Source: Candidatus Woesearchaeota archaeon
Lineage (GTDB): Archaea; Nanobdellota; Nanobdellia; Woesearchaeales; JAHWHD01
Reading direction: 5' to 3'
Assembly: GCA_019323515.1 (NCBI GenBank)
Contig: JAHWHG010000003.1
Span: 31,873 to 95,872 of the forward strand
Length of the DNA stretch: 64,000 nt
Shown: positions 1 to 51,021 of the stretch, piece by piece
How the letters are laid out: the number at the start of each line of letters is the position of its first letter
Numbering within the stretch: the stretch's first letter is position 1
Made by a program: the position numbers and the translations under genes
The notes under the pieces: generated by a model
What the model was told of the DNA's origin: nothing
What the model saw: only the letters and a program-made list of their open reading frames with translations
The model's database searches: none

Positions 1-1740
1 CAGATGTTTGTTTCAGGTACAACTAATGAACCAGGATTGAATTTAACTTTTAACATTGATGGGGATTTTCATTCTAGCTATCAAGAAGAGGACAGTAAAT
101 TGATAAGATGGTTTACTGGTTTTTATGGTACATTGGGGGATAATAAGATACAGGCAAGTGGTTCTAGGTTAGGTGTTGCTAATGTGGGTGATTATTTAAG
201 TTTTCCTTGGTTACTGGTAAGAGAATATCCTAATGCAAATAAGAGGTATAGGGTTGAATCTATTGCTTTGGAAGGCAGTGCAACTGTAATAACACTTGAT
301 GAACCTTTAGATAGGATTGTTGTTGCTAATCACAACATCTCTGTTTATACAAACAAGTATCCTTCAAATTGGTTTAGAGGTTCTGTAGAATTTAATAAGC
401 TAGGAGATGTTAATCTTTCTGTCAAGGCAAGTGATTTCATAGGCAATTCATTTGAAACTGAACCTGTTAATGTTTTCTTTGATAATCTTCCATTAAGATT
501 GTTTAGCATGAATCCTAGAAGTGGTTCTTCAATTAGATCAACTTCAGTTACCAATTCAATTGTTCTTGGTGATCTTATGACAGGTTCTGGACTTGACACG
601 TCTTCAATTGAATTAGCTATTGATGGCATTAGAATTGAACTTCCAGACATAACCCAATTAGATAGTCTGGGTAATTATCGATTATATGAAATCTCGCATG
701 CCTCTAATCTTTTGCCAGGTAACCATAGTTTTAGTATCAAAGCAAAGGATGTTGCAGGAAATACTTTAGAGGTTTCTAATGATTTTGATGTTAATGTTAC
801 TTTCTCAGATAAGCCTGTCTTGAATATAGATAATGGGGTTTATGATGGTATACTTGATAGATGGTTTGTAAATTCTCCTGGAAATTATACTTTTGAATTT
901 TCAGAGCCAATCATTGAGTTTCAGAGTAGCTTAGGATCATGTACAAATGTAAATAATAAGTACTTTGTTTGTGATTTGGGTAGTTTACAAGATGGTGATT
1001 ATGATATAGAAGTAAAATCAAAGAAGAGTGATACTTCTGCTGAATCATCTTTTAGGTTTGTTTTGACAATTGATTCAGTTGCTCCAGAGCCTAGCCTGAT
1101 AATGACCTCATCTAAAGTTTCAAATGGGCAAAATCTAGTATTTGATTTGAATGTAGACAATGAGAATTACGATTCATTGTTGCACTATAATATCTTTAAT
1201 GTAAGTGGTGAAGATATTGAAGGTTTTGTGCCTAAGTTATCTGATAACAGGTTCTATATGGAATGGCCTGTGCCTATTTTGAATCTTAGTGCCTATGATT
1301 TTACACTTAATTTTACTGATAAGGCCGGTAACAATAGAGTACTTGCAAGGAATTTTGAGTTTATAAGTTCTGAGCTTGCTTTTAGTGTTAATAGTATATC
1401 TGTTCAGGATGATAAAATATTTTCAGAGCTCAGCAATGGTTTTACTACGTATTACACTTCAAAGTATGAAGCTAATGTTAAAGTCAGAGCTGATAATATT
1501 GTTAGTTTAAGGTTTGAGAATGATGTGTGTAAAGAGGTTAGGACTGGTGAAGGAACTTATGACCCTGTAACTGGTCTTTGGAGTATTCCTGTTCAACTTA
1601 ATTGGGTTGAGGGTGGAGAGATTGAGAATAATGTTAGGTTGATTGCAACTGATGCAGGAGGAAACGAGTTTGAAATTCCTTTAAAGATTATTGTTGATAG
1701 AAAGCCTCCAGGTGCACCTAATATTTTTGTCAAAGAATAA
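1..1740 (+). CDS. Surface adhesin-like protein, 5'-truncated by the window edge. It carries repeated Ig-like (Big/cadherin-like) modules with recurring DxAGN motifs.
   Basis: The ORF is open to position 1. It repeats KASDFIGN, KAKDVAGNT, TDKAGNN and ATDAGGNE at roughly 100-aa spacing, which is typical of bacterial or archaeal Ig-like adhesin domains. It is Asn/Ser/Thr-rich. Confidence 0.5.
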   Translation, partial: QMFVSGTTNEPGLNLTFNIDGDFHSSYQEEDSKLIRWFTGFYGTLGDNKIQASGSRLGVANVGDYLSFPWLLVREYPNANKRYRVESIALEGSATVITLDEPLDRIVVANHNISVYTNKYPSNWFRGSVEFNKLGDVNLSVKASDFIGNSFETEPVNVFFDNLPLRLFSMNPRSGSSIRSTSVTNSIVLGDLMTGSGLDTSSIELAIDGIRIELPDITQLDSLGNYRLYEISHASNLLPGNHSFSIKAKDVAGNTLEVSNDFDVNVTFSDKPVLNIDNGVYDGILDRWFVNSPGNYTFEFSEPIIEFQSSLGSCTNVNNKYFVCDLGSLQDGDYDIEVKSKKSDTSAESSFRFVLTIDSVAPEPSLIMTSSKVSNGQNLVFDLNVDNENYDSLLHYNIFNVSGEDIEGFVPKLSDNRFYMEWPVPILNLSAYDFTLNFTDKAGNNRVLARNFEFISSELAFSVNSISVQDDKIFSELSNGFTTYYTSKYEANVKVRADNIVSLRFENDVCKEVRTGEGTYDPVTGLWSIPVQLNWVEGGEIENNVRLIATDAGGNEFEIPLKIIVDRKPPGAPNIFVKE

Positions 1741-1791: not shown

Positions 1792-4700
1792 ATGAAAAGA
1801 GTATTATTGTTATTTGTTTGTATCTTCTTTTTATTAGCCTATAATGCCTCAGCTATTAGCCAACCGATAATTACAATCACTCCTGAACCAGAGATATTTG
1901 TTTCATTCAGTGAAAATGTGAGTGTGACTGAATATTATATCTATGACACTACTATCCCCAGACTTGACAAGACCAATATTGCGATGACTAATCTTGATAA
2001 TCAAAATTTTTCGTTCTTACCAAATGTGCCTTTACCTAATGATGAGTATACCTTTGAGATAACTGCAGTTGATAAGTTAGGGAACGGTGAGTTATTCAAA
2101 AAAGAGTTTGTAGTTAACAGTTCATCAACTATAATCAAGATGGTTCATCCAAGTCATGGGGTTTCGTCTACCCAAAGCTTTGATTTAATTGTAGGTACTA
2201 GTCCTTCTGCAGATTGTAGATGGTCTGTAATTAGCAAACTTCCTTATCCTTCTGCAAGTCTTTTTGATACAACAGGTGCAAGGGCGCATATAATTGATGA
2301 TTTCTCATTACTAGACCCTGTCACTGATCCAACTGATTTCTTTGTAACATGTGTTGATGTTTTTGATAGAGAAGCTGATGCTTATTTTGAGTTAAGGTTT
2401 GATAATACTAAGCCTGGCATAACAGCTAGAGTTGAGCCTAATCCTGTTGTTCAGAATAAGTCTGGAGAGGCGCATACTGTCTTTTATGTTGACACTGATG
2501 AAGATACTATCTGTAGATGGAGTGAACAAAACGTTAAGTTTGAGAACATGAAATCGTTTAGTGGGGAGAGTAATGAATCTATGGTTTCGTACAGAAAACA
2601 TCATGAGCAGCTTATTACGCTTGGAACTCAAACTGCTTCATACACTTATTATGTTCAATGCCAAGATTTAGCAGAATTATTGAGTGACCAGGTTGCTTTA
2701 GGATTCTCTGTTGATGTTGAAAAGGGTATGGGGATTAAGGTTAATTCTCCTCCAGAGTTTGGTTCTAATAAGAGCGTCACACTTGACATTACAACTGATG
2801 AAGAAAGTTTTTGTGATTATATACTTGGAGGTGCAAGCAGCCAGAGTTTTGGCGAGGGTGAACCTTCACTATCACATATAAAACCTTTGGGTGTTGAGCT
2901 GGCTGATGGTAAATATACTATAACTTTTAGATGTGCAAATGCAGAAAGCGGGCCAATAAGCAAGACTTATGAGTTTGTGATTGATACAACGCCTGCGACA
3001 GGAGTTGATTTTAATCAGACGCCAGATGCAATATGTCAAGATAAAGATGGGGATTGGGTTATTGAAGGAAACTGGCAGGGAATTGATTTGGAAAGTGGTG
3101 TAGAACTTTATCAGTATTCTGTTGTTGATTACTATAATATTGCTGTTATAAATTGGACGCAGACGTCTTCAAATGAAGTTGAGATTGATGAAGATTTGGA
3201 TGGAAATCCTTTGAATCTTACAGTCAATAGCAAATATTTCTTTGTTGTAAGGGTTAAGAATAAGGCTGGTTTGTGGAGTACTGGATATAAAAGTCACGGC
3301 ATGATTGCTGGAGCTCCAAAAAGTGAATATTGTAAAGAGACTAATCCGCCGACTGTTAATATTGCACAGGTTCCGACTGACAGAGGTATTAATGTTTCAA
3401 TTCAGTGTACAGATGATACTGAATGTGATTCCTTGAGGCAGTATTATAATTATGTCTATAATCTTTATGATGTTTGTAGTCCTTCTCTTAGTTACATTGA
3501 CCCTATCGAGTTGAGGCAGAATGCTAAATTCTGTTATGAAGTTTATGATATATTTGGGAATGTTGCTATAGGCAATGTTACAATTAATTTGAGTGTGGTT
3601 GATAATGATGGAGATGGTATATCTGATTTTGAAGATAAGTGCCCTAATACTCCAATAACCGTGATTACAGAGATTGATGAGTTTGGATGCGCTGATATTG
3701 AGAGAGATGCTGATGATGATGGCGTGCCTGATATTCAGGATAATTGTCCTGATACACCCTACAATGTTACTGTTTATTTGACCGGTGAAAAACAGGGTTG
3801 TCCTATAGACTCTGATGAGGATGGTATGCCAGATTATTGGGAGGATAAATATGAACTTAATAAAACTGACCCCAGTGATGCAATCCTAGATAAAGATGGT
3901 GATGGTGCAACTAATCTTGAAGAATATCGAGCTGGGACCGATCCTACCAATGCTTTGGATTTTCCTAGTAAAGATACTGATGGTGATGGTGTTGATGACA
4001 GGAATGATATCTGTCCTAATACTCCTTCTGGTGTAAGCGTTGATACCTTTGGTGAAAGAGCTGGATGCCCGCGTGATTCTGATGGTGATGGTGTTCCAGA
4101 TTTTGAAGATCAATGTGCAGATACTAAGAAGGATGCTGAGATTTATAAAGAAGGTGATAAGAAGGGTTGTACAATTCCTAATTATCTTGCATGGTTTTTA
4201 TTAATCTTAGGAATCTTATTATTATTGGGAGGCTCAGGTTATATTGTTTATAAGATTTCTAAAAAGAAAGCTGTCGTAAGTACAGCGGTAACATACAAAC
4301 CAATTAGTGTAACAAAAGGCGCTCCTTCTAGGATTGAACTCCAAAGAAGAGCGATGGCTGATAAGGCTGCACGTGAGAGAGCTGTAAGGTTAGCGGCAGC
4401 TAGAAGGACAAGAGAGGGTATAATCTCAAAAGCTTTTGGTGTTTCTAAATTGCGCTTCCCGGAAAAGGTTAAAGAACAAGGCGTTTTTGAGAGATTAACT
4501 TCGTATACTAAAGCTGAAGATATATTTTCAAGGTTAGGTAAATTAACTAAGAGTAAGGAGCAAGAAAAAAAGGAAAGTTTTGAGAAACTTGAAAAGGTAG
4601 GTAGCAAGGTTAAAGAGAGTGAGGCATTTGAAAGGCTTGCAAGATTTAAGAAAGTTAAAACTAAAGGCGATGTTTTTAAGGAGCTTTCTGCGATGGTTAG

Positions 4701-4974
4701 ACCAGAGGTTAAGGTAAAGACTATGCGCGATTTAAAGAAGATTACAAGGAATGGAAAAGCAAGAAAAAATGAAATTATTGAAATGCTTGCTGCTGTTGAA
4801 GCTCCTCGTGAGACAATAAAGAATGTTTACCATACAATACTATCTTATCTTCTCAATTCTAAGAAGATTACTAAGCGTGAAATTAATGAGATTCTAATCA
4901 ATTTAGCTGATAAGGGTGTTATGACTAAAAAAGATGTAAGTGATGTGATGTTTTCGTTAGAGGTGAAAAAATGA
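1792..4974 (+). CDS. Large surface protein of 1060 aa. It has a Sec signal peptide, Ig-like modules, thrombospondin type-3-like Ca-binding repeats, a single TM helix and a long Lys-rich cytoplasmic tail with repeated FE(R/K)L motifs.
   Basis: The N-terminus MKRVLLLFVCIFFLLAYNASA is a signal peptide. A TAVDKLGNGE motif marks an Ig-like module. There are at least six DxDxDGxxDxxDxCPxT repeats (DNDGDGISDFEDKCPNTP, DADDDGVPDIQDNCPDTP, DTDGDGVDDRNDICPNTP, DSDGDGVPDFEDQCADT). The TM helix is YLAWFLLILGILLLLGGSGYIVY. The C-terminal 230 aa is K/E-rich and repeats FERL/FEKL/FKEL. Confidence 0.6.
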   Translation: MKRVLLLFVCIFFLLAYNASAISQPIITITPEPEIFVSFSENVSVTEYYIYDTTIPRLDKTNIAMTNLDNQNFSFLPNVPLPNDEYTFEITAVDKLGNGELFKKEFVVNSSSTIIKMVHPSHGVSSTQSFDLIVGTSPSADCRWSVISKLPYPSASLFDTTGARAHIIDDFSLLDPVTDPTDFFVTCVDVFDREADAYFELRFDNTKPGITARVEPNPVVQNKSGEAHTVFYVDTDEDTICRWSEQNVKFENMKSFSGESNESMVSYRKHHEQLITLGTQTASYTYYVQCQDLAELLSDQVALGFSVDVEKGMGIKVNSPPEFGSNKSVTLDITTDEESFCDYILGGASSQSFGEGEPSLSHIKPLGVELADGKYTITFRCANAESGPISKTYEFVIDTTPATGVDFNQTPDAICQDKDGDWVIEGNWQGIDLESGVELYQYSVVDYYNIAVINWTQTSSNEVEIDEDLDGNPLNLTVNSKYFFVVRVKNKAGLWSTGYKSHGMIAGAPKSEYCKETNPPTVNIAQVPTDRGINVSIQCTDDTECDSLRQYYNYVYNLYDVCSPSLSYIDPIELRQNAKFCYEVYDIFGNVAIGNVTINLSVVDNDGDGISDFEDKCPNTPITVITEIDEFGCADIERDADDDGVPDIQDNCPDTPYNVTVYLTGEKQGCPIDSDEDGMPDYWEDKYELNKTDPSDAILDKDGDGATNLEEYRAGTDPTNALDFPSKDTDGDGVDDRNDICPNTPSGVSVDTFGERAGCPRDSDGDGVPDFEDQCADTKKDAEIYKEGDKKGCTIPNYLAWFLLILGILLLLGGSGYIVYKISKKKAVVSTAVTYKPISVTKGAPSRIELQRRAMADKAARERAVRLAAARRTREGIISKAFGVSKLRFPEKVKEQGVFERLTSYTKAEDIFSRLGKLTKSKEQEKKESFEKLEKVGSKVKESEAFERLARFKKVKTKGDVFKELSAMVRPEVKVKTMRDLKKITRNGKARKNEIIEMLAAVEAPRETIKNVYHTILSYLLNSKKITKREINEILINLADKGVMTKKDVSDVMFSLEVKK

Positions 4975-5480
4975 ATGCCGTAAAAAAAGCGCAGATTCAG
5001 CATGTATTTATTTATATCCTTGCAATTGTTGTAATAGGCCTTACTTTGATCTTGGGTTACAGAGGAATTAAAAGTGTAATCCAGGGAGGGAATGAGGTTG
5101 CACTTTTAAATTTCCAGAAGCAACTTGAGAATGATATTGAAAGGTTGAGTGCTGCTTATAGGAATAGAGAGATGATACCTTATGATGTGCCTGGGGATTA
5201 TAAACAGATATGTTTTGTTGATGTTATTACTCCTGACGTTACATATCCCTCGGAGCTTGAAGCATATCCCTTTATTAAAGAAAGTGTAGATTCTAATTTG
5301 GAAAGTAATGTTTGGTTAGTATCCCGTAGATCTGAGGACCCTCTTGGAGAGGGTAAGTTAGGTGATATTGAAGTTGATAATGGTTTTGAATGTGTTGATA
5401 TTGTTGGCGGTAAAATAAGGTTGAGTATAGAGGGTACTGGCGGAAAGGCTAAGGTAAAAGGACTTGAAGCAATTTCTTAA
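4971..5480 (+). CDS. Class-III signal peptide (type IV pilin-like) protein.
   Basis: The N-terminus is MNAVKKAQ followed by a hydrophobic helix (IQHVFIYILAIVVIGLTLILGY). This is a KKAQ-type prepilin peptidase site. The start overlaps the upstream stop as ATGA. Confidence 0.5.
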   Translation: MNAVKKAQIQHVFIYILAIVVIGLTLILGYRGIKSVIQGGNEVALLNFQKQLENDIERLSAAYRNREMIPYDVPGDYKQICFVDVITPDVTYPSELEAYPFIKESVDSNLESNVWLVSRRSEDPLGEGKLGDIEVDNGFECVDIVGGKIRLSIEGTGGKAKVKGLEAIS

Positions 5481-5483
5481 AAA

Positions 5484-6518
5484 ATGAAACATAAGAGAGG
5501 ACAGGTAGAACAGCAATTTAATTGGTTGTTTGTTTTGATAGCAGGAGCTGTTATACTCTTGTTTTTTGTAGGAATAATCCTTAGGCAGAAGGGTGCTTCT
5601 GAAACTAAACTTTGTGTAACTATACTTGATGATCTTGATTTGAGTTTTGCAACTTCAAAAGAGCAAGCCGGTATGTCGAGTCCTGTTGATCTTTTTGATG
5701 TAGGGCTTGATTTCTCTTGCGATAATTTTCGTTGTGCAGATATTGATGGACCTGAGAGAAGTCTTGGAAGGACAATCTTGTTTGCTCCAAAAGAGTTAAG
5801 AGGTGATAGGTTACTTACTTGGGCTTTGGAATGGAATATTCCCTTCAAAGTTGATAATTTCTTGTTTGTGACAGCTGAAGAGAATAGATATTATATCTTG
5901 TGCAATTCTGCTTTATCCAATAACTGTCAGAGGGCTAGGAATGTATATGAAAGGATTCCTGACAATTTTACAAAGGATTTCATTGATGTTAGAACAGAAA
6001 TGCCTGAGATTAAGGACTTAAATGATAATAAAGTAAGGTTTTTGCTTTATAATTTAGGAGGTACTAATGAAGTTGAAAATATTATCCAACAAATTATTCC
6101 AAAGTTTGAACGTTTGGAAGATGAAGATGTAACGTTTTTAGTTCTTGATGATTTGAATGCTGGCTTCTATAGTAAACATGGTTCTAGTTTTGAGGATTAT
6201 GGAATAGTTCCATTGCCTGAACAGGAAGGTGCTTCCTTGTATGGAGCTTTGTTCACTGATGATAAGGATAATTTTAATTGTATATTAGAAAAGGCTAAAC
6301 AAAGAGTAAAATGGGTTGCTGACATCTACAGAAGAAAGGCTAGTATGTTTGCAACTCAAGGTGTTACTGATCCGCTTTGCGGATATTATTATGATACTGC
6401 TGTAAATGAACTTACTAAGTTGGTTAATGAGGGTTTTAGTGATTTTGCCTCTGTCAAATCTAAATTAAGGGAAATTAATGGTGATTTACAGAGTAAGACA
6501 TGTCCTTTAATATATTGA
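5484..6518 (+). CDS. Class-III signal peptide (pilin-like) protein of 344 aa with a Cys-containing extracellular domain.
   Basis: The N-terminus is MKHKRGQ followed by VEQQFNWLFVLIAGAVILLFFVGI. Confidence 0.5.
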   Translation: MKHKRGQVEQQFNWLFVLIAGAVILLFFVGIILRQKGASETKLCVTILDDLDLSFATSKEQAGMSSPVDLFDVGLDFSCDNFRCADIDGPERSLGRTILFAPKELRGDRLLTWALEWNIPFKVDNFLFVTAEENRYYILCNSALSNNCQRARNVYERIPDNFTKDFIDVRTEMPEIKDLNDNKVRFLLYNLGGTNEVENIIQQIIPKFERLEDEDVTFLVLDDLNAGFYSKHGSSFEDYGIVPLPEQEGASLYGALFTDDKDNFNCILEKAKQRVKWVADIYRRKASMFATQGVTDPLCGYYYDTAVNELTKLVNEGFSDFASVKSKLREINGDLQSKTCPLIY

Positions 6519-6545
6519 TAAGGTTGATTATATAACATGTTTAAC

Positions 6546-7148
6546 ATGAAAAGGGGTCAAGTAAAGATGCTGGAGAATGTGTTTATATTAGTTATATTTT
6601 TTATTCTGCTTGTTATTGGAATTACTTTTTATACAAAGGTTTCAACAAAGAGTGCAGAGATTTATGCAAGGCAGTTGACAGGAGAGGAGGCTGTTAAAAA
6701 ATCGCAAAAGTTACTGCATCTACCAGAAGTGCAGTGTACTTCTGATTTACCAGAATTAACTGCTATTGAAAATTGTGTAGATATTTATAAACTTAAAGCT
6801 TTTGAGGAAGTAGCAAGGGATCAGGGAGACATGTTCCTTGATTATTATTATGATATCTTTGGGTATTCGAGTTTCACAGTAAAACAGGTTTATCCTTCTA
6901 CTATTAAGATTTTAACATCTGAATTAGGAATTACTCCAGGTTCGCCAGATTCTCCAACTGGTGATTATCAGGTGGTTGATAGGGAGTATAATGAAATACA
7001 AGCACCTGAGTGGGTTGTATATAATAAAACTCCAGATGAAATCGTTGATAGCAGGAGGGCTGCAGTTCCTGTCTTGCTTTTTGATGAAACAGTAAGGCCT
7101 TTAGGAAGTTTTAGCCTTGGAATGGTTGTGATAGAGGTTTATTCATAA
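6546..7148 (+). CDS. Class-III signal peptide (pilin-like) protein.
   Basis: The N-terminus is MKRGQ followed by VKMLENVFILVIFFILLVIGITF. The ORF track starts 9 nt earlier at 6537. Confidence 0.5.
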   Translation: MKRGQVKMLENVFILVIFFILLVIGITFYTKVSTKSAEIYARQLTGEEAVKKSQKLLHLPEVQCTSDLPELTAIENCVDIYKLKAFEEVARDQGDMFLDYYYDIFGYSSFTVKQVYPSTIKILTSELGITPGSPDSPTGDYQVVDREYNEIQAPEWVVYNKTPDEIVDSRRAAVPVLLFDETVRPLGSFSLGMVVIEVYS

Positions 7149-7675
7149 TGGAGAGGGTTGAGTCTAAGAGGAAAGGGCAGATGGAGGTATTTGGATTAGC
7201 TTTAATTGTAATTTTATTAGTCATTGGCATGATTTTTGTTGTAAGTTTTATGCTTTTAAGACCGAGCAGAGAGATTCCTGCTATATTTGTGAGCGAACAA
7301 CTTACAAAGAACCTTGTGAATGAGATTCCAAAGGTAACAACTGATTGTAATAAGTATAACCTTGGAGCATTATTAATGGATTGTGCTACTTATGGTCAGC
7401 CTGGTACAATAGCTTGCGGAGGTGAGACATATTCCTGTGAAAAGGCTCATGATGTAGTTGAGGAGATATTTAAGAATACTTTAGAGAAAGAGAAGGTTAA
7501 GTATTTTTTTAGGGCATATGTTATAATGGCTGGACAGGACCAAGGTTCTATATTTGATGATATTGGGCAGGAATGTCTTATTGATGAAGATATAACAACC
7601 GGGCAGCAGCCTTTGCCTTTAGATGTTAATACTTTAATACTTGAATTACAGGTTTGTCATGCTTCAAACACTTGA
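7148..7675 (+). CDS. Class-III signal peptide (pilin-like) protein.
   Basis: The N-terminus is MERVESKRKGQ followed by MEVFGLALIVILLVIGMIFVV. The start and upstream stop are shared as ATAATG. Confidence 0.5.
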   Translation: MERVESKRKGQMEVFGLALIVILLVIGMIFVVSFMLLRPSREIPAIFVSEQLTKNLVNEIPKVTTDCNKYNLGALLMDCATYGQPGTIACGGETYSCEKAHDVVEEIFKNTLEKEKVKYFFRAYVIMAGQDQGSIFDDIGQECLIDEDITTGQQPLPLDVNTLILELQVCHASNT

Positions 7676-7774
7676 ATTTAAAGAAAGATTTATATATTAC
7701 GATATAATAAAACAGAACAATTAAAAGTATGCTATTATGTATGAATGATTATAGAAAATATTAAGAGGTGAATT

Positions 7775-8122
7775 TTGATGGATAAAAAGGCACAGGAAAT
7801 CTCTTTGAATGTTATTATTATAGCTGCAATTGCACTTATAGTATTAGTAGTTATAGTAGCTGTGTTTACTACTGAGTTTGGGGGTTTTGTTAAAAAGCTG
7901 CCGAAGGTTGACGATGCTGAAGTAATTAGGGTTCAGTTGCTTTCAAATTATGACTGTAAGCCAAGTAAGACTGGAATTGCAGAAGTTAAAAAGAATCTTG
8001 AAAATGTTGCAACAGAAGAGTATGATTCAAGATACACTGTTGCAATTAATGATTTAGTAAACTCCTGTGGTCAGAATGGAAAGTCTGCTTGTACAAGGAG
8101 TTGTGAGTGGAAGGGTTCTTAG
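7775..8122 (+). CDS. Small pilin-like protein of 115 aa with a class-III signal. It is a candidate major pilin.
   Basis: The N-terminus is MMDKKAQ followed by EISLNVIIIAAIALIVLVVIVAVF, with a Q-x-S-L motif as in EppA-type pilins. It has its own AT-rich upstream region with TATA-like boxes and an AAGAGGTG ribosome-binding site. Confidence 0.55.
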   Translation: MMDKKAQEISLNVIIIAAIALIVLVVIVAVFTTEFGGFVKKLPKVDDAEVIRVQLLSNYDCKPSKTGIAEVKKNLENVATEEYDSRYTVAINDLVNSCGQNGKSACTRSCEWKGS

Positions 8123-8159
8123 GATTAAACTTTGATTACTTGTTTTTTATTTATTTTTT

Positions 8160-8216
8160 TTCATAATATTTATATACTATTTATTCTGTTATTTAACTAA
8201 AAGGAGGTCATTTTCT
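8160..8216 (+). promoter_or_regulatory. Promoter-like AT-rich TATA region plus a strong Shine-Dalgarno site for the small pilin gene at 8217.
   Basis: The TATA-like sequence is atatttatatact. AAGGAGGT lies 9 nt before the ATG. Confidence 0.4.
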
Positions 8217-8486
8217 ATGAAAAAGGGACAAGGAATGCCGTTGAATGTTATCATAATAGCTATCATTGTTATTTTAGTAGGAATTGTTTTGATAGCAGTG
8301 TTTAATAGATATATAACAGGGGAGACAGGAAGATTAGAAAGCTGTGTAGCAAAGGGTGGTCAGTGTAAGTTGAGAGTTAATAATGTTGAAGGTTCAGGTT
8401 GTAATAAGGAAACTGAAGTTTACTTGCCAAAGACTGATTGTGAGAAAGGTACAAATAAGGATTGCTGTTTAAAGGTGTTGGGTTAA
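8217..8486 (+). CDS. Small pilin-like protein of 89 aa with a class-III signal and a Cys-rich C-terminal half. It is a candidate major pilin.
   Basis: The N-terminus is MKKGQ followed by GMPLNVIIIAIIVILVGIVLIAVF. A strong AAGGAGGT ribosome-binding site lies 9 nt upstream and TATA-like sequence lies upstream. There are 6 Cys in the last 45 aa. Confidence 0.55.
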   Translation: MKKGQGMPLNVIIIAIIVILVGIVLIAVFNRYITGETGRLESCVAKGGQCKLRVNNVEGSGCNKETEVYLPKTDCEKGTNKDCCLKVLG

Positions 8487-8605
8487 TGCGAATATTGAAG
8501 AAAGGCCAGATAGAGATGAGAACTTTAGTAATCCTTATAATTATTATAATGTTAGCTTTATTACTATTTATGATGATATGGAGGTTGACTAATCTTGCGG
8601 GATAA
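8486..8605 (+). CDS. Mini pilin-like ORF of 39 aa, absent from the ORF track because it is shorter than 60 aa.
   Basis: It reads MRILKKGQIEMRTLVILIIIIMLALLLFMMIWRLTNLAG. It has the same KKGQ-plus-hydrophobic-helix architecture. Its start overlaps the upstream stop as TAATG. Confidence 0.4.
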   Translation: MRILKKGQIEMRTLVILIIIIMLALLLFMMIWRLTNLAG

Positions 8606-9347
8606 GAAAGGTGTAGAGCTTGCATGGAGCAAGACAGCTGGCTTGCTTATTATGTTAATTGGGTTTATAGCGATTTTAGTGGTCATATATGCTTTAAGGT
8701 CTACAGTTGACAAAGAGCAGCCAAGGATTTTGTGCCAGACAAGCAACGGGTTTAGAGCTAGGAATGCATTAACAATTGGCGATATAAATAAGATTATGAA
8801 TGAAAAGATTCCTTTAGGTCCTCTTAAATGTAAGATTACTAATTTTACTGTCCAGACTGAGAAGGATTTGGCTGATAGGATTGCTTATACTTGGGAAGAT
8901 TTTTTGATGGGAGAGTATACATGGATGTTTCCTGATTATGACCAGGATTGTATGGTATATTACTCTTTTACGCTTGAAAATGATGCTCCTCCAATTTCTG
9001 CAAATGATTTCACGAATAAGTTAAAGCAGATGACATACAAACTAGACCCTAAGACTGGTGATCCTATAACTTATCTTGATTATGTGCAGAATTATGCTGG
9101 TGAGGGTAAGGTTATAGTTGATAATACGCTTGGTGCTTTTGCACCTGGACAGATTTATGGGATTGCAATAGTCAGTCCGATACTGCCACAGGATAGGTCT
9201 CTTTATTGGAGTGCAAAGACATTTCTCAATGGCTTGTACCAATCTTATTGGGTTGGAAAGACTCCTATGGATTATCCTGAGCATAATGTTATTATCATCG
9301 GAGACCTGAATAAAATACAGAACAGTGGTGAGTGTTTTGGCATCTAA
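8595..9347 (+). CDS. Class-III signal peptide (pilin-like) protein of 250 aa.
   Basis: It has a TTG start. The N-terminus is (M)RDKKGVELAWSKTAGLLIMLIGFIAILVVIYAL. Confidence 0.5.
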   Translation: MRDKKGVELAWSKTAGLLIMLIGFIAILVVIYALRSTVDKEQPRILCQTSNGFRARNALTIGDINKIMNEKIPLGPLKCKITNFTVQTEKDLADRIAYTWEDFLMGEYTWMFPDYDQDCMVYYSFTLENDAPPISANDFTNKLKQMTYKLDPKTGDPITYLDYVQNYAGEGKVIVDNTLGAFAPGQIYGIAIVSPILPQDRSLYWSAKTFLNGLYQSYWVGKTPMDYPEHNVIIIGDLNKIQNSGECFGI

Positions 9348-9489
9348 GAAAGGAGTAGAACTTGCATGGTCACAGATAGTTATAATACTTATAGTGCTTG
9401 CCTTGATCTTATTTTTTATATTTTTTTCGGGTTCTATTAAGGAGCAGTTGATTGATAAGATAAAGTCATTTTTCAATATATTCAGATGA
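9337..9489 (+). CDS. Mini pilin-like ORF of about 50 aa with a TTG start.
   Basis: It reads (M)ASKKGVELAWSQIVIILIVLALILFFIFFSGSIKEQLIDKIKSFFNIFR. Its N-terminal KKGVELAWS is nearly identical at the nucleotide level to the start of the 8595 gene. Confidence 0.35.
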   Translation: MASKKGVELAWSQIVIILIVLALILFFIFFSGSIKEQLIDKIKSFFNIFR

Positions 9490-10871
9490 ATAAGAAAGGT
9501 TTAACATGGAGTGTAATAGTAATATTAATCATTGTATTAGTTGTAGGTTTAGTTGTATTGATGATGTTGTTTGGTGGAAAAGGTTTCTTGAGCAGGCTTG
9601 CTTCTAATATATTAGGATTGAATGTTACATTTGGTGTTGAGCCAAGGCCAGCAGGACCGTTAGTTGCGCAACCTAATGTCGATGCAGATTTTAAGTTGGT
9701 CACTCAAGCGATCAGTTCTGTGCAGAATATGAAGGATTACAGATGCAGGCTTAATCTTAGCGAATGGAAAACTATTGAAGAAGGTTATAGCTTAGTGATG
9801 ACTCCAAAGAATCCTGGAATCTGGGTTGCTTTGAACCAGGATGATAAGATAGTTAAACAGCAGGAATATGCTACACTTCAGCTTTGTTCAATTGAAGCAA
9901 GGGTAGGTTCAAGTTTCCATAATAATTGGGTTAAGAAAGTTTATCCTAGACAGCCTGAGGTACCAAGAAGCGAGACAAAGATTACAGTTGATAAAGATAA
10001 TGTATTTACAAACACTATCAATTATGATGTAGCAAACCTTATGTTATATAAAGTCCTGAATGACAGAATTTGTGTATTGCATACAGCTCCTGTAGCATTG
10101 AAAGATTATTTGAATAACGTCCCTGTATGTTCTTCGGGAGCCTTAGAAGTTAATTTAAGTTCTTTTGTTGCTGAGATGTCAGATGGTTATGGTTTGGGGT
10201 TTGATTTGTATATCTCTGTGCATGGCAGCCATAAGGAATTGGAGAGTTTACTGAATTCTTCAAGGGACAAGTTTGTTGATGGATTTAAGGATATTAAAAC
10301 AGTAAGTGGCTTGACAAAGGATGAAATCTCCAAGCAACCTGACAATAAATCTTATGTTAAGGAAAAGATAAAGAGCGGAGTTATATCAATATTTCATGGT
10401 GTTGTTGGAAATTATTACTCTGGTTTATTTAATGATCTTAGGCTTTATGATATTCGTATTATTGATAAGGCAAAAGTAAAGCTGCCTAATGAACTAGTTG
10501 AGGCTTTTAATAAAGGGGATTTTGCTAAAGCTGAGCAATTGTATGGTCAATTGCATTCAAAACAGAAATTTGAACCAAATTTTATTGCTTATCCTCTTAA
10601 TATGGATCTTGCAAAGTTTTTTGAAAGCGTATTTGCTAAACAGTCTAAGCAGACTGCAAATCTGAATTATGTTGATAATTTAGGAGCAAAGCATCCTTAT
10701 AAGATCGAGATAACTCAAGTATCAAAAGATAGTTTTGATTTTTCATTCTATATTGATAATGTTAGGAAGGATTGTCATTGGATGTGGGGGATGAGAGGGG
10801 GCACCATTACAAACGATAGAATTAGAGAATCAATTACGTTACAAGATTTTGAGAAGATGTGCAGTTATTAA
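9486..10871 (+). CDS. Class-III signal peptide (pilin-like) protein of 461 aa with a large extracellular domain.
   Basis: The N-terminus is MNKKG followed by LTWSVIVILIIVLVVGLVVLMMLFGG. Confidence 0.5.
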   Translation: MNKKGLTWSVIVILIIVLVVGLVVLMMLFGGKGFLSRLASNILGLNVTFGVEPRPAGPLVAQPNVDADFKLVTQAISSVQNMKDYRCRLNLSEWKTIEEGYSLVMTPKNPGIWVALNQDDKIVKQQEYATLQLCSIEARVGSSFHNNWVKKVYPRQPEVPRSETKITVDKDNVFTNTINYDVANLMLYKVLNDRICVLHTAPVALKDYLNNVPVCSSGALEVNLSSFVAEMSDGYGLGFDLYISVHGSHKELESLLNSSRDKFVDGFKDIKTVSGLTKDEISKQPDNKSYVKEKIKSGVISIFHGVVGNYYSGLFNDLRLYDIRIIDKAKVKLPNELVEAFNKGDFAKAEQLYGQLHSKQKFEPNFIAYPLNMDLAKFFESVFAKQSKQTANLNYVDNLGAKHPYKIEITQVSKDSFDFSFYIDNVRKDCHWMWGMRGGTITNDRIRESITLQDFEKMCSY

Positions 10872-10882
10872 GTTTGTTGTTA

Positions 10883-11623
10883 TCAATTCTTTTGTGTTGT
10901 GAAGTTAGGATTTGTGTTGGTAGGATCTTCAAGTGTTTGGATTAATTGTTTGATTAGTTTAGGTGTTCTTGGATTGCCCCATTCATTTTTCCAAGATAGA
11001 GGATAAATCGCACCAATGCATGATGGCATTTGTTCATGATATTCGCATTCTACTGTGCCATATGCTATTGTTTTTTCTTTGATCACTTCAACTCCATAGG
11101 AATCATTAGACTTTCTCCAAAATCTAAAAGTCTCTCCTGAATTTCTTATCTGTTGTGAATAAAATCTAATTATTCCCTCTTTTCTTTTATTTCCATGTAA
11201 AATGCCTTTTGGTGTTTTTATCCTACCCATAAGTTTATAGATATCTCCGGTTAGTACTGCTGCGTTAAATCTTACATTGAAGTCGTCCATGTGAAATACT
11301 GAACTAGAGGATCCTGAAGCAAAATGAATCTCTGTTTGCTTTTCTTTATCATATTGGTCTCCTATTATTATCTTGCATCCATAGGAGTATTCAGTAAATC
11401 TTGGGTTTAGTTCTGCAATAAATAAATTAGTATATAATTCAAAGAAGTCTAATGGTTTCCAATCACTATTTACTTCTTGGATTCCAAAATTTGGGTTGTC
11501 TTTAATGTAATCGTTATCTGCAATAAGGAATAATCTTTTATTGTTCTTATCATCAATAAGGCTCATAAAATATAATTCTGGTTTGTTATTGTTGGGCCTT
11601 ATGAAATAAAAGTAATTCAACAT
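10883..11623 (-). CDS. Hypothetical protein of 246 aa, directly adjacent to and co-directional with the lipase-like gene.
   Basis: It is a long ORF with no recognisable motif. It abuts the stop of the upstream ORF (11624). Confidence 0.4.
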   Translation of the reverse strand: MLNYFYFIRPNNNKPELYFMSLIDDKNNKRLFLIADNDYIKDNPNFGIQEVNSDWKPLDFFELYTNLFIAELNPRFTEYSYGCKIIIGDQYDKEKQTEIHFASGSSSSVFHMDDFNVRFNAAVLTGDIYKLMGRIKTPKGILHGNKRKEGIIRFYSQQIRNSGETFRFWRKSNDSYGVEVIKEKTIAYGTVECEYHEQMPSCIGAIYPLSWKNEWGNPRTPKLIKQLIQTLEDPTNTNPNFTTQKN

Positions 11624-13433: not shown

Positions 13434-13775
13434 ATGAAGAAAGGTCAGGGCTTTACATGGGAGACTTTGATTACTGCTACTATCGTAATATTGGTAGGAG
13501 TTATTGTAATTTTTATATTTAGAAGCTATATAAATAAGCAGACCGGAGCTATTGATACTCAGCTTGCTTCTTTAGGTGATTGTGATTGTGATGGGATTGC
13601 TAATATGTTTGATGAATGTAAGTGTGAAAAAGGAAGTGCTGAATTTAAGGGTTGTACAAAGGATCCATCACAGATGAAAGATGATGAGAAGAAATGTAAA
13701 TTGACTTCTCTTGATCAGTGTCCAGAGAATAAGTTTCCAGGAAATAAGTGTCCTCCTATTGATATTGCAAAATGA
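13434..13775 (+). CDS. Small pilin-like protein of 113 aa with a class-III signal and a Cys-rich C-terminal domain.
   Basis: The N-terminus is MKKGQ followed by GFTWETLITATIVILVGVIVIFIF. An AAGGAGGTG ribosome-binding site and an AT-rich promoter-like region lie upstream. Nine Cys residues include a CDCDG motif. Confidence 0.55.
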   Translation: MKKGQGFTWETLITATIVILVGVIVIFIFRSYINKQTGAIDTQLASLGDCDCDGIANMFDECKCEKGSAEFKGCTKDPSQMKDDEKKCKLTSLDQCPENKFPGNKCPPIDIAK

Positions 13776-15342: not shown

Positions 15343-15343
15343 A

Positions 15344-15802
15344 ATGCCAGAAGAATTTGAAACAGGACAAGCACCAATGTGGTGGATATTTTATGGAATC
15401 ATAATGCCTATATTAGTTATACTGTTTATCTTCTTTATCAGTCAATATAAATCTGTTGCTATTGCACAGACGCATAATGTAGAGACTTTGGGATACCAAC
15501 AGATGTTTCTTAACAGTGACTGTCTTTGCTATCAAGATCATTTGACTGGTAGGTTGTACCCTGGAGTGATTGAAAAAAGTAAGTTTAACAGCCAATGGTT
15601 TAGTAATTGTTTTACTAATAATCCTTTAAATTATGGTTTTAGGTTAACTCTTATCGACCATGTTGGGAAGATACTTGGTCAGGTGTCAAAGGATATTAAT
15701 ACTAATTTTAAAAGTACAAAGAGCGTTGTCCCGATCCTTGTAAGAGATAACAATGGATATTATAATGCAAAGCTTGAGGTTGAGGTGTGGTTTGGTGGAT
15801 AA
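15344..15802 (+). CDS. Membrane-anchored protein of 152 aa, possibly an atypical pilin-like protein.
   Basis: The N-terminus is MPEEFETGQ followed by APMWWIFYGIIMPILVILFIFFI. It has the G-Q-hydrophobic pattern but an acidic rather than basic leader. Confidence 0.35.
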   Translation: MPEEFETGQAPMWWIFYGIIMPILVILFIFFISQYKSVAIAQTHNVETLGYQQMFLNSDCLCYQDHLTGRLYPGVIEKSKFNSQWFSNCFTNNPLNYGFRLTLIDHVGKILGQVSKDINTNFKSTKSVVPILVRDNNGYYNAKLEVEVWFGG

Positions 15803-17253: not shown

Positions 17254-17259
17254 TGAAAA

Positions 17260-50638: not shown

Positions 50639-50726
50639 GTTACCTTACCCCTTTTTAGTATGTTAAATATATGTTTGATTATAAACTTTTTGGAAAATAA
50701 AGGGTTTTTAACATTTAAAAATAGAA

Positions 50727-50931: not shown

Positions 50932-51021
50932 AATGAGCTTGGGACATTTTTGTGAATAAGTAGGCTATATATAAATTTAATTGTTGAAGATACTTAGAAT
51001 TAATTTAAATGTAAAAAAAGA

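What the first reader, a model, noticed from the sequence alone, without database searches (positions are those of the whole stretch)
1792..4974. Giant adhesin with thrombospondin-type-3 Ca-binding repeats and an unusually long Lys-rich cytoplasmic tail carrying FE(R/K)L repeats
The extracellular part combines Ig-like modules with at least six DxDxDGxxDxxDxCPxT repeats, which are calcium-binding TSP3-type motifs more familiar from eukaryotic matrix proteins and some bacterial OmpA-like proteins. After a single TM helix the protein continues for about 230 aa with K/E-rich sequence that repeats F-E-R/K-L about every 20 residues. Long cytoplasmic tails are unusual for prokaryotic adhesins. The repeat could dock the adhesin to an intracellular partner such as a cytoskeletal filament, or to the pilus-like system encoded immediately downstream. 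The preceding partial gene (1..1740) is a second Ig-repeat adhesin.
Basis: seen in the sequence. Interest (0 to 1): 0.55.

Follow-up and report, generated by a model that had tools for sequence, protein, structure and literature searches.

The report
Woesearchaeal adhesin with conserved cytoplasmic tail
A large cell-surface protein of an uncultured DPANN archaeon (Woesearchaeota) carries a long tail on the inner side of the membrane; this tail is a conserved, undescribed module shared by many surface proteins of that lineage and sits next to the same pilin-like genes in every locus checked, so it probably links what the cell touches outside to something inside.

Summary
ORF 1792-4974 (+) encodes a 1060-aa type I membrane protein. 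It has a signal peptide and an acidic, Cys-rich ectodomain with three tandem ~100-aa Cys-pair modules. Six TSP type-3 Ca-binding motifs follow (Pfam TSP_3, E=1.3e-8), then one TM helix and a 238-aa basic tail. The tail holds five F-x-x-L motifs 13-18 residues apart (16 of 200,000 shuffles reach five).

The window is archaeal, and NCBI names the protein as from a Candidatus Woesearchaeota archaeon.

The tail is conserved. An exhaustive phmmer search found 34 other representative proteins (79-3476 aa) that match it, always at their extreme C-terminus and, where a TM is present, after the last one. Across the family the motif is D-h-F-[DE]-[KR]-L-x-x-[LI], 3-5 copies per tail. It precedes a ~100-aa six-helix domain (AF2 pLDDT 86) with no Pfam, NCBIfam, PDB or Foldseek match.

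In 12 of 12 cluster loci the tail-bearing protein directly precedes the same four pilin-like genes.

Cytoplasmic location is well supported. The tail's function is inferred to be a docking or clustering module, and no partner was identified. I rate it a new variant of a known kind: an adhesin-like protein in an archaeal type-IV-filament-like locus, with a new cytoplasmic domain family.

The parts
1..1740 (+). 3' part (last 578 codons) of the upstream 2023-aa secreted protein of Ig/CarboxypepD_reg type; first gene of the conserved cluster
   Evidence: Big_13 E=4.4e-8, 34 bits. The full gene is 2023 aa with CarboxypepD_reg and Big_13 in L016. A homologous gene occupies the same position in L001, L003, L004, L007, L008 and L009.
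1792..4974 (+). The gene in question: a 1060-aa type I membrane protein (P0001, NCBI name 'thrombospondin type 3 repeat-containing protein [Candidatus Woesearchaeota archaeon]')
1792..1854 (+). Signal peptide, aa 1-21 (MKRVLLLFVCIFFLLAYNASA|ISQP)
   Evidence: Hydropathy peak at aa 1-24 and an A-x-A site, by inspection
1855..2118 (+). N-terminal Ig-like module, aa 22-109 (Big_13-like, sub-threshold)
   Evidence: Big_13 E=2.3e-4, 22 bits against a 27-bit cut-off. The same position reaches 28-35 bits in family members P0011, P0021, P0023 and P0032.
2119..3003 (+). Three tandem ~100-aa modules, each with a conserved Cys pair (C142/C187, C241/C290, C341/C381); presumed disulfide-bonded beta-sandwich modules
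   Evidence: Self-alignment A5 has invariant V, T, C, L, C and D columns; Cys positions. The fold was not modelled.
3004..3591 (+). Further ectodomain region, aa 405-600; Cys-containing; no family match
   Evidence: Conserved with P0002.
3592..4182 (+). Membrane-proximal block of six TSP type-3 Ca-binding motifs (aa 604, 639, 673, 700, 728, 762)
   Evidence: Pfam TSP_3 E=1.3e-8 and TSP3_bac at aa 700-721. Motif positions. The only PDB sequence relative is the OmpA-family protein 5wtl, E=6e-8, matching in this region.
4183..4257 (+). Single TM helix, aa 798-822 (YLAWFLLILGILLLLGGSGYIVYKI), with the family-wide motif G-x-x-G-Y-h-h-Y-K
   Evidence: Hydropathy. This is the best-conserved segment against P0002 (68% identity), and the motif recurs across the family.
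4258..4473 (+). Juxtamembrane basic segment of the tail, aa 823-894, including the R/A/E-rich stretch RIELQRRAMADKAARERAVRLAAARRTREGIISKAFG
   Evidence: Net charge +12 over aa 823-880. Similar '...KRAxERExhhxAFG' stretches are seen in P0010, P0013, P0014 and P0017 and in P0003, by inspection.
4474..4707 (+). Run of five short amphipathic motifs: VFERL (aa 899), IFSRL (912), SFEKL (930), AFERL (946), VFKEL (962). Family consensus: K-K-D-[VAI]-F-[DE]-[KR]-L-x-K-[LI]-x-K.
   Evidence: The first, second, fourth and fifth F..L sites are invariant in P0002; the third is SIDKL there. AF2 models helices here with pLDDT 60-70.
4657..4971 (+). C-terminal six-helix domain, aa 956-1060. The fifth motif helix is its first helix. 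It ends in two or three tandem 'G-K-h-T-K-x-[DE]-h-x-[DE]-h-h-x-x-L' units.
   Evidence: AF2 on A3: mean pLDDT 86, pTM 0.77, helices H3-13, 16-31, 37-45, 51-67, 73-85 and 91-103. Family alignments A2 and A3. No Pfam, NCBIfam or PDB match.
4971..7675 (+). Four conserved genes with class-III-signal-peptide-like (type IV pilin-like) N-termini: 4971-5480, 5484-6518, 6537-7148 and 7148-7675. They are always found directly after the tail-bearing gene.
   Evidence: N-termini KKA|QIQ.., KRG|QVEQQFNWLF.., KRG|QVKMLEN.., RKG|QMEVFG.., by inspection. Homologues lie in the same order in L001, L003-L010 and L012; in L002 the same gene order is seen by inspection only. No Pfam or NCBIfam pilin model matches.
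7775..10871 (+). Four further genes with pilin-like N-termini (7775-8122, 8217-8486, 8595-9347, 9486-10871); less conserved

Best explanation
The gene encodes a type I membrane protein of a Woesearchaeota-specific surface-structure gene cluster.

Outside the cell it presents an acidic, probably disulfide-bonded stalk of Ig-like modules. Close to the membrane sit six calcium-binding TSP type-3 motifs, so it looks like an adhesin or matrix-type ectodomain.

It is held by one TM helix with a conserved G-x-x-G-Y motif. It then continues in the cytoplasm with a lineage-wide module of three parts:
- a basic juxtamembrane segment;
- 3-5 copies (five here) of a short N-capped amphipathic helix motif, D-h-F-[DE]-[KR]-L-x-x-[LI], separated by Lys-rich linkers;
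- a compact ~100-aa six-helix domain.

Shown: the anatomy, the inside location of the tail, its conservation as a movable C-terminal module on many different membrane proteins, and the fixed gene order with a large secreted Ig-type protein upstream and four pilin-like genes downstream.

Inferred: the tail works as a cytoplasmic docking or clustering module. The helical domain and the repeated motifs would give several binding sites, either for a cytoplasmic partner or for each other in trans. This would gather or position the surface proteins, coupling the adhesin to the pilin-like apparatus encoded next to it. The closest analogy is the way integrin or cadherin tails, or bacterial FimV/HubP, couple an external domain to an internal hub.
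For: Organism: archaeal RNase P RNA, RadA, RPA and RNase J, and the NCBI name Candidatus Woesearchaeota archaeon.

Anatomy.

Inside location:
- Signal peptide plus a single TM.
- Charge +4 after the TM against 0 before it.
- Net charge of the tail +29 against -85 for the ectodomain.
- 0 Cys and 0 sequons in the tail against 20 and 14 in the ectodomain; 0 Cys in all 22 family tails.
- The same domain follows a 2-TM, bPH_2-like N-terminus whose charge distribution puts its C-terminal part inside (P0042 and a weak bPH_2 hit for P0024; topology by inspection).

Conservation:
- P0002 is 40% identical over the full length, including the tail. Tail identity is 24-40% by segment and TM identity is 68%.
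- Exhaustive phmmer gave 35 proteins (the query itself plus 34 others), all matching within 16 residues of their C-terminus.
- The F..L motif occurs 3-5 times per tail against about 1 expected. The 88-site logo is K-K-D-[VAI]-F-[DE]-[KR]-L-S-K-[LI]-G-K.

Domain: the AF2 model has pLDDT 86 and pTM 0.77.

Synteny: window, L001, L002-L010 and L012 make 12 of 12 loci with the tail-bearing gene followed by the same four pilin-like genes. In L012 two tail-bearing proteins flank that module.

Background: large Ig-fold adhesin-like proteins are a described accessory of archaeal type-IV-filament loci (bioRxiv 10.64898/2026.04.22.720090).
Against: - No partner protein was identified.
- No type-IV-filament ATPase, platform protein or prepilin peptidase was found among the 40 window ORFs scanned with Pfam, or in the 8 kb upstream.
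- The 'pilin-like' label rests on N-terminal sequence features only; no Pfam or NCBIfam pilin model matches.
- The C-terminal domain also occurs on small multi-TM proteins beside NFACT_N genes, without pilin genes. Its partner therefore cannot be only the pilus apparatus.
- Many members give sub-threshold hits to winged-helix DNA-binding domains (MCM_C in 22 of 36, GMT-wHTH in 17 of 36), which could point to nucleic-acid binding instead.
- The motif region is modelled with only pLDDT 60-70.
- Trans docking of motifs onto the domain is pure inference.
Confidence: 0.55

Rival explanations
1. The tail has no specific protein partner. It is a membrane-surface anchor: the Lys/Arg-rich segments and the repeated amphipathic helices lie on the inner leaflet, bind anionic archaeal lipids and stabilise, or locally shape, the membrane under a large, heavily loaded ectodomain.
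For: - Net charge +29.
- The motifs are amphipathic: hydrophobic moment 0.37-0.62 against a tail mean of 0.34.
- Lys-rich flanks appear in the family logo.
- AF2 models them as isolated, low-confidence helices.
Against: - The motif has conserved acidic residues at -2 (D or E in 60 of 88 sites) and +1 (D or E in 45 of 88). These would oppose binding to anionic lipids and look more like an N-cap and a specific recognition pattern.
- The well-folded ~100-aa C-terminal domain is not explained by this model.
- Mean hydrophobicity of the motifs is at or below zero.
Confidence: 0.15
2. The tail is a nucleic-acid-binding or signalling module. The basic, winged-helix-like C-terminal domain binds DNA or RNA at the membrane, or is released by intramembrane cleavage at the Gly-rich TM helix to signal contact with a host cell, in the manner of regulated intramembrane proteolysis.
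For: - Consistent sub-threshold similarity to wHTH domains: MCM_C in 22 of 36 members (best E 3.5e-4), GMT-wHTH in 17 of 36, DnaB_2 in 13 of 36, z-alpha in 9 of 36. The weak profile hits to PDB are pArc, MarR and Lrs14.
- The tail is strongly basic.
- The TM contains helix-weakening GGSG and is the best-conserved segment.
- A second architecture with the domain sits beside NFACT_N, an RNA- and ribosome-associated family.
Against: - No hit reaches any curated cut-off.
- The AF2 model is all-helical with no beta wing.
- Foldseek retrieves no wHTH protein.
- No protease gene is part of the conserved cluster.
- The repeated F..L motifs are unexplained by this model.
Confidence: 0.1
3. The protein is a cell-envelope (S-layer-like) component. 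The conserved TM and tail are a sorting or insertion signal, recognised once during biogenesis for targeting or positioning next to the pilin-processing machinery, rather than a permanent docking site.
For: - The module is always C-terminal and is attached to very different ectodomains, as sorting signals are.
- The TM motif is conserved.
- S-layer-like Ig-fold proteins occur in archaeal filament loci.
Against: - Known C-terminal sorting signals (PGF-CTERM, PEP-CTERM, LPXTG, GlyGly-CTERM) end a few basic residues after the TM. Here 225-385 residues, including a folded domain, follow it.
- No NCBIfam sorting-signal model matches.
- No sortase-like gene was seen in the cluster.
Confidence: 0.12
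4. The F-x-x-L periodicity is a by-product of low-complexity K/E-rich sequence and has no function of its own.
For: - The tail is compositionally biased: K 17%, E 10%, R 8%.
- Tandem Repeats Finder reported no DNA-level repeat.
Against: - Only 16 of 200,000 composition-preserving shuffles reach five F..L.
- Four of the five F and L positions are invariant in a 40%-identical orthologue whose surrounding tail is only 24-30% identical; at the third site only the L is kept (SIDKL).
- The same extended motif recurs 3-5 times in most family tails, against about 1 expected.
Confidence: 0.03

Closest known systems
Thrombospondin type-3 repeat proteins of prokaryotes (Pfam TSP_3 PF02412 / TSP3_bac PF18884; e.g. 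OmpA-family protein PDB 5wtl; Myxococcus MtsC/TraB in NCBIfam)
   Same: Tandem DxDxDGxxDxxD calcium-binding motifs in an extracellular, membrane-proximal position. The HMM score is above the Pfam cut-off. There are partial NCBIfam hits to MtsC, TraB and the PA1041 anchor, far below their whole-protein cut-offs, and a PDB hit to 5wtl.
   Different: Those proteins are bacterial outer-membrane or lipoprotein-anchored. They lack a C-terminal TM followed by a long cytoplasmic module. All NCBIfam whole-protein scores are far below their cut-offs (54 against 350 bits, and similar).
Large Ig-fold adhesin-like or S-layer-like accessory proteins of archaeal type-IV-filament (TFF) loci (described in bioRxiv 10.64898/2026.04.22.720090 and Makarova et al. 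2016, PMC4858521)
   Same: A large surface protein of Ig-like modules encoded directly beside a set of genes with class-III-signal-peptide-like N-termini, in an archaeon.
   Different: No ATPase, platform protein or signal peptidase lies in or near this locus. The pilin-like genes match no existing pilin model. In the passages of that preprint retrieved with 'DPANN', 'adhesin', 'Nanoarchaeota' and 'Ig-like', no conserved cytoplasmic tail is mentioned for those adhesins; the paper was not read in full.
FimV / HubP polar hub proteins of Gammaproteobacteria (from general knowledge)
   Same: Works alike on paper: an external domain, one TM, a long repeat-bearing cytoplasmic region and a small conserved C-terminal helical domain. 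FimV is functionally tied to type IV pili.
   Different: No sequence relationship: no LysM or FimV C-terminal model hit in Pfam or NCBIfam. The FimV/HubP cytoplasmic regions are acidic, whereas this one is basic. The domain of life differs.
Eukaryotic adhesion receptors with adaptor-binding tails (integrins; cadherins; cadherin-23 tail binding the harmonin N-terminal helical domain)
   Same: Type I topology, a Ca-binding repeat ectodomain, and a cytoplasmic tail with short helical motifs and/or a helical-bundle module. The best geometric Foldseek match of the C-terminal domain is a harmonin-homology domain (RTEL1 HHD2, 7wu8: TM 0.53/0.64, rmsd 2.8 over 83 columns).
   Different: That Foldseek match is not significant (E=2.6). 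There is no sequence similarity. The partner proteins (talin, catenins, harmonin) have no known archaeal counterparts. This is an analogy only.
C-terminal sorting signals (PGF-CTERM/archaeosortase, PEP-CTERM, LPXTG, GlyGly-CTERM)
   Same: A conserved C-terminal TM-containing module attached to many unrelated surface proteins of one lineage.
   Different: Those signals end within about 10 residues after the TM. Here 225-385 residues, including a folded domain, follow it. No NCBIfam model hit was found.

Membership tests
TSP type-3 repeat (Pfam PF02412 / PF18884) | HMM score above the curated gathering cut-off | tested here: met
   TSP_3 scores 34.8 bits against a cut-off of 25, E=1.3e-8, over 3 stretches.
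TSP type-3 repeat (Pfam PF02412 / PF18884) | Tandem DxDxDGxxDxxD acidic loops | tested here: met
   Five strict motifs and one variant between aa 604 and 773.
TSP type-3 repeat (Pfam PF02412 / PF18884) | Calcium binding | not testable with these tools
   Needs biochemistry or a structure.
Bacterial Ig-like domain Big_13 (PF19077) | HMM score above the cut-off | tested here: not met
   22 bits against 27 for this protein. Homologues P0011, P0021, P0023, P0032 and P0033 reach 28-35 bits at the same N-terminal position. Three further Cys-pair modules were found by self-alignment. The fold was not modelled.
Type I single-pass membrane protein (N-out, C-in) | Cleavable N-terminal signal peptide, exactly one further TM helix, and positive-inside charge bias | tested here: met
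   Kyte-Doolittle scan shows hydrophobic segments only at aa 1-27 and 792-823. No dedicated predictor (TMHMM or DeepTMHMM) was available.
Archaeal type-IV-filament (TFF) system | Pilin-type subunits with class III signal peptides | tested here: inconclusive
   At least eight downstream genes have a short basic leader, [KR][GA]Q and about 20 hydrophobic residues, by inspection, and these are conserved in homologues. No Pfam or NCBIfam pilin model matches.
Archaeal type-IV-filament (TFF) system | Assembly ATPase, platform protein and class III signal peptidase in the locus | tested here: not met
   None among the 40 window ORFs scanned with Pfam, nor among the genes 8 kb upstream. They may be encoded elsewhere in the genome.
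Woesearchaeal C-terminal cytoplasmic tail module (family defined here; no database entry) | Match to other members over the tail, located at the extreme C-terminus after the last TM | tested here: met
   phmmer with the tail alone returned 34 other representatives at E from 2.6e-23 to 7e-4, all ending within 16 residues of their C-terminus.
Woesearchaeal C-terminal cytoplasmic tail module (family defined here; no database entry) | Repeated D-h-F-x-[KR]-L motifs and the terminal 'h-L-x-Y-L-L-K-S-G-K-I-T-K-x-D-V-S-x-h-L-F-x-L-x-x-x-G-h-h-x-K-K-D-V' helical domain | tested here: met
   Five motifs. The domain aligns at 24-40% identity to 35 members. This protein and its two close orthologues form a divergent branch (NVYHTILSYLLNSKKITKREINEIL...).
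Winged helix-turn-helix DNA-binding domains (MCM_C, GMT-wHTH, z-alpha, MarR) | HMM score above the cut-off; three-helix core plus a beta wing | tested here: not met
   Only sub-threshold hits (best 3.5e-4). The AF2 model has no strands. Foldseek returns no wHTH.
C-terminal sorting signals (PGF-CTERM, PEP-CTERM, LPXTG, GlyGly-CTERM) | TM helix followed by only a few basic residues at the very C-terminus; matching NCBIfam/TIGRFAM model | tested here: not met
   238 residues follow the TM. No NCBIfam hit.
FimV / HubP | Periplasmic LysM domain and FimV C-terminal domain models | tested here: not met
   No such hits in Pfam or NCBIfam. This is a functional analogy only.

The most novel reading that the evidence does not exclude
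Woesearchaeota, which are ultrasmall and presumably host-dependent DPANN archaea, possess an integrin- or cadherin-like transmembrane coupling system. A lineage-specific cytoplasmic module is grafted onto many different adhesins. It consists of a conserved TM, multivalent D-h-F-x-K-L helix motifs and a six-helix domain of apparently new fold. The motifs dock onto the helical domains of neighbouring molecules or onto a cytoplasmic hub. The adhesins and the adjacent pilin-like apparatus are thereby gathered into an attachment plaque at the contact site with the host cell, and contact can be sensed or controlled from inside.
Probability: 0.2. Interest if true: 0.8.

Novelty: new variant of a known kind. 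Interest (0 to 1): 0.55.

Why it matters
DPANN archaea are thought to live attached to other cells, yet how they attach is almost unknown, and most of their surface proteins are unannotated.

This finding defines a recognisable, testable module: a conserved TM, a repeated helix motif and a new helical domain. The module marks a whole set of Woesearchaeal surface proteins and is tied by gene order to a conserved four-gene pilin-like unit.

It gives a handle for three things:
- finding the lineage's adhesins in metagenomes;
- asking what lies under the membrane at contact sites;
- testing whether a prokaryote with a minimal cell couples outside adhesion to inside organisation through a long cytoplasmic tail, which is uncommon for prokaryotic adhesins.

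Tried and rejected
Searches that found nothing useful:
- A word-indexed homologue search with the tail alone found nothing. The same index with the family profile returned only 5 proteins. Only the exhaustive phmmer search revealed the family.
- The search for related loci with the 36-sequence alignment failed because no stretch was conserved enough. A 10-sequence subset worked, but it samples only one clade.
- Pfam, NCBIfam and PDB sequence searches of the tail and of family members gave no hit above any cut-off.
- The weak PDB hits to designed PPR proteins are repeat and composition artefacts.
- Foldseek of two AF2 models against PDB and BFVD gave no hit with E<0.4.
- MA3, MIF4G and harmonin-homology resemblances are not significant and were not adopted.
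- Tandem Repeats Finder found no DNA repeat under the motif run.
- No second copy of the domain exists in the 64-kb window (six-frame HMM search).
- Pilin models did not match the downstream genes.
- Five literature searches found no description of this tail, nor of TSP3 adhesins in Woesearchaeota.

Ideas considered and set aside:
- MIT-interacting motif (MIM1)-like reading of the motif. The hydrophobic/basic spacing is similar, but this is a recalled resemblance only; no Vps4/CdvC was seen and no test was possible.
- EF-hand reading of the terminal units. There are weak EF-hand_6/7 hits in 6-7 of 36 members, but no acidic Ca-ligand pattern.
- WH2 or FtsZ C-terminal-peptide resemblance. The patterns do not match.

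Full report
**1. What is in the sequence**

ORF 1792..4974 on the + strand encodes 1060 aa. A Kyte-Doolittle scan shows only two hydrophobic segments. One is an N-terminal signal segment (aa 1-21...AYNASA|ISQP). The other is a TM helix at aa ~798-822, YLAWFLLILGILLLLGGSGYIVYKI.

The 776-aa part between them is acidic (D 10.8%, net charge -85). It holds 20 Cys and 14 N-x-S/T sequons.

Pfam finds TSP_3 above its curated cut-off (34.8 against 25 bits, E=1.3e-8) and TSP3_bac at aa 700-721. By pattern there are five strict DxDxDGxxDxx[DE] motifs (aa 604, 639, 673, 728, 762) and one variant (aa 700). Four of them are followed by C-[PA]-[ND]-T. The only solved structure related by sequence is an OmpA-family protein (5wtl, E=6e-8), which matches in this block.

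The Ig-like claim is weaker:
- Big_13 scores 22 bits against a 27-bit cut-off.
- Three tandem ~100-aa modules share a conserved Cys pair and flanking residues.
- Homologues reach the Big_13 cut-off at the same N-terminal position.

After the TM come 238 residues (K 16.8%, R 8.4%, E 10.1%; net +29; no Cys, no sequon). F[ESK][ERK]L occurs at aa 899, 912, 930, 946 and 962, with spacing 13-18 residues. Only 16 of 200,000 shuffles of the tail reach five F..L. Tandem Repeats Finder reports no DNA-level repeat, and no other frame or gene of the window has such a cluster.

**2. Organism and neighbours**

The window is archaeal. It has an archaeal RNase P RNA at 61875-62206, and RadA, RPA, RNase J and GyrA. 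G+C is about 34%. The protein is in NCBI as 'thrombospondin type 3 repeat-containing protein [Candidatus Woesearchaeota archaeon]'.

The partial gene upstream is the end of a 2023-aa protein with CarboxypepD_reg and Big_13 domains.

Directly downstream lie eight genes whose N-termini look like archaeal class III (type IV pilin-type) signal peptides. Each has a short basic leader, [KR]-[GA]-Q, then about 20 hydrophobic residues. A second set of such genes lies at 13434-17253. No Pfam or NCBIfam pilin model matches them, so 'pilin-like' rests on inspection and on conservation.

No filament ATPase, platform protein or signal peptidase was found among the 40 ORFs scanned, nor in the 8 kb upstream.

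**3. Is the tail inside?**

All available evidence says yes:
- There is a signal peptide and a single TM.
- There are +4 charges in the 15 residues after the TM and 0 in the 15 before it.
- Cys and glycosylation sequons are completely absent from the tail.
- In 22 family members with an ectodomain, Cys runs at 1.8-11.7 per 100 aa outside and 0.0 in every tail.
- The same C-terminal domain also ends small proteins with two N-terminal TM helices. In these the basic loop after TM2 places the rest inside (P0042; a weak bPH_2 hit for P0024; topology by inspection).

A dedicated topology predictor was not available.

**4. Is the tail conserved?**

Yes, and this is the main new result.

A full-length orthologue (P0002, 1067 aa, 40% identity) keeps the tail. 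Four of the five F..L sites are invariant; the third is I..L. By segment, identity is 42% in the N-terminal ectodomain, 48% in the TSP3 block, 68% in the TM and 24%, 30% and 40% in the three tail segments.

The word-indexed search with the tail alone found nothing. The exhaustive phmmer search of 1.84 billion representatives found 35 proteins at E<=1e-3, namely the query itself and 34 others. They are 79 to 3476 aa long, and every match ends within 16 residues of the protein's C-terminus.

Where the sequence is complete, the architecture is: signal peptide, variable ectodomain, one TM, a 224-385-aa tail, and the conserved end. The ectodomain often has a Big_13-like start and TSP3_bac repeats before the TM.

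All members that carry an organism name are Woesearchaeota or Nanoarchaeota. Three GTDB MAGs are labelled 'uncultured Methanosarcinales'.

**5. Anatomy of the tail module**

- (a) The TM carries a family-wide G-x-x-G-Y-h-h-Y-K(-K-Y-Y) motif.
- (b) A basic juxtamembrane segment follows. It contains an R/A/E-rich stretch ending in ...AFG, which is also recognisable in other members.
- (c) Next is a run of short motifs. Across 88 sites in the family the logo is K-K-K-K-D-[VAI]-F-[DE]-[KR]-L-[S]-K-[LI]-G-K-K-K, with 3-5 copies per tail against about 1 expected by shuffling. The motifs are amphipathic (hydrophobic moment 0.37-0.62). AF2 models them as separate helices of modest confidence (pLDDT 60-70).
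- (d) The tail ends in a ~100-aa domain, aa 956-1060. Its first helix is the fifth motif copy. It is modelled as six helices with mean pLDDT 86 and pTM 0.77. Its last helices are two or three tandem units of the type G-K-h-T-K-x-[DE]-h-x-[DE]-h-h-x-x-L.

No Pfam or NCBIfam family covers the module. Profile and sequence searches of PDB are empty. Foldseek gives nothing below E=0.4 in PDB or BFVD.

Many members give sub-threshold hits to winged-helix domains (MCM_C in 22 of 36, GMT-wHTH in 17 of 36). However, the model has no beta wing, and no wHTH is retrieved by structure.

The best geometric match is a harmonin-homology domain (7wu8, TM 0.53/0.64). It is not significant (E=2.6).

**6. Gene order**

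- In L001, the locus of the orthologue P0002, the same order holds: 2045-aa Ig-type protein, tail-bearing protein, then homologues of window genes 4971-8486.
- All nine loci recovered from GTDB species genomes with a profile of the domain (L002-L010) show the tail-bearing protein followed at once by homologues of the same four pilin-like genes, in the same order. This protein is about 1430-1477 aa, about 27% identical to ours over 820-870 aa, and is truncated by contig ends in two loci. Six of the nine also show a large homologous protein upstream.
- In a more distant locus (L012), a 3386-aa protein ending in the module precedes the four-gene unit. A second module-bearing protein (P0019) follows it.

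That makes 12 of 12 loci. The link between the tail-bearing adhesin and this pilin-like unit is therefore well supported.

The domain is not confined to this setting. Proteins of 260-303 aa (P0024, P0029, P0042), with N-terminal TM helices and the same C-terminal domain, lie in 4 of 4 loci directly after a short NFACT_N gene among housekeeping genes.

**7. How it most likely works**

Shown: this is a type I surface protein with a Ca-binding, Ig-like ectodomain. Its cytoplasmic end is a conserved, portable module of one archaeal lineage, and it is genetically locked to a pilin-like four-gene unit and to a giant secreted Ig-type protein.

Inferred: the module is a docking or clustering device. 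The multivalent short helices plus a folded helical domain form the typical layout of motif-domain interaction systems. One motif copy is already packed on the domain in the model. The upstream copies could therefore bind domains of neighbouring molecules, or a common cytoplasmic partner. This would gather adhesins and the adjacent apparatus at one site.

The conserved Gly-rich TM may add intramembrane contacts, for instance with the hydrophobic N-terminal helices of the pilin-like proteins.

I put about 0.55 on this reading. The rivals are:
- lipid-binding amphipathic anchor (0.15);
- sorting or biogenesis signal (0.12);
- nucleic-acid-binding or cleavage-released signalling domain (0.10);
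- chance periodicity (0.03).

**8. Comparison with what is known**

The TSP3 block is a regular member of its Pfam family. Large Ig-fold adhesin-like proteins beside pilin genes are a described feature of archaeal type-IV-filament loci (bioRxiv 10.64898/2026.04.22.720090). This locus, however, lacks the defining ATPase and platform genes, so it cannot be filed as a complete system.

The tail module matched no library and turned up in none of five literature searches. Functionally it resembles FimV/HubP hubs and eukaryotic adhesion-receptor tails, but it shares none of their defining sequence features. It fails the definition of the known C-terminal sorting signals, because 238 residues follow the TM.

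**9. Verdict**

Novelty: a new variant of a known kind, namely an adhesin-like protein of an archaeal filament-type locus carrying a previously undescribed cytoplasmic domain family. Interest 0.55.

Noticed in passing
L011 4949-6783; L013 2840-4898; L014 160-2218; L015 2884-4798: Small proteins of 260-303 aa (P0042, P0024, P0029) have N-terminal TM helices, a bPH_2-like stretch and the same C-terminal helical domain. In 4 of 4 loci they lie directly after, or overlapping, a short NFACT_N (PF05833) gene of 351-400 aa, in a housekeeping context (RFC-like AAA, RsmB/F methyltransferase) and not in a pilin cluster. This is a possible conserved gene pair.
   Followed up: partly
window 10883-13288 (- strand); L016 19092-21497: Here the gene is split by an in-frame TAA (at 11624-11626) into ORFs of 554 and 246 aa. 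In another sample carrying the otherwise identical locus, it is one 801-aa gene with a PGAP1-like alpha/beta-hydrolase hit. There are two mismatches in 14 kb, at window 11618 and 11626.
   Followed up: yes
window 13434-19277: A second run of genes has class-III-signal-peptide-like N-termini (13434-13775, 14518-15342, 16303-17253 and others). It is followed by a secreted 458-aa protein with an HELGH zinc-protease-type motif (17260-18636). After that comes a Cys-rich secreted protein with a C-terminal TM and only a short basic tail (18633-19277). None has a Pfam match.
   Followed up: no
L012 1-7563: Two module-bearing proteins flank the four-gene pilin-like unit: a 3386-aa giant protein and the 520-aa P0019. 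P0019 combines a class-III-like N-terminus (NRKG|IIDDAMLAILAVAIIL) with the C-terminal TM and tail module.
   Followed up: partly
L003, L004, L008: Three TPA MAGs labelled 'uncultured Methanosarcinales archaeon' carry the Woesearchaeota-type cluster at 70-81% identity to the domain profile. This suggests a taxonomic mislabel of these bins.
   Followed up: no
window 61875-62206: Archaeal RNase P RNA (RF00373, 149 bits). No tRNA gene was detected anywhere in the 64 kb.
   Followed up: no
window 1-64000: GC skew is positive in all but one of the 2-kb bins (50001-52000 is -0.095) and the cumulative skew rises almost without interruption. This goes with most genes lying on the + strand.
   Followed up: no
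window 53257-55656 and 36664-39315: A 799-aa protein has a lamin-tail-domain (LTD) hit just below cut-off (32.7 against 34.3 bits). An 883-aa ORF has no Pfam match. Both may be further surface proteins.
   Followed up: no
P0003 (1648 aa, JGI/ENA): This distant homologue of the ectodomain (28% identity, 47% coverage) also ends with one TM and a 142-aa K/R-rich tail. That tail has the basic stretch and one IFTRL motif but lacks the C-terminal helical domain. It may be a reduced or ancestral form of the tail.
   Followed up: no
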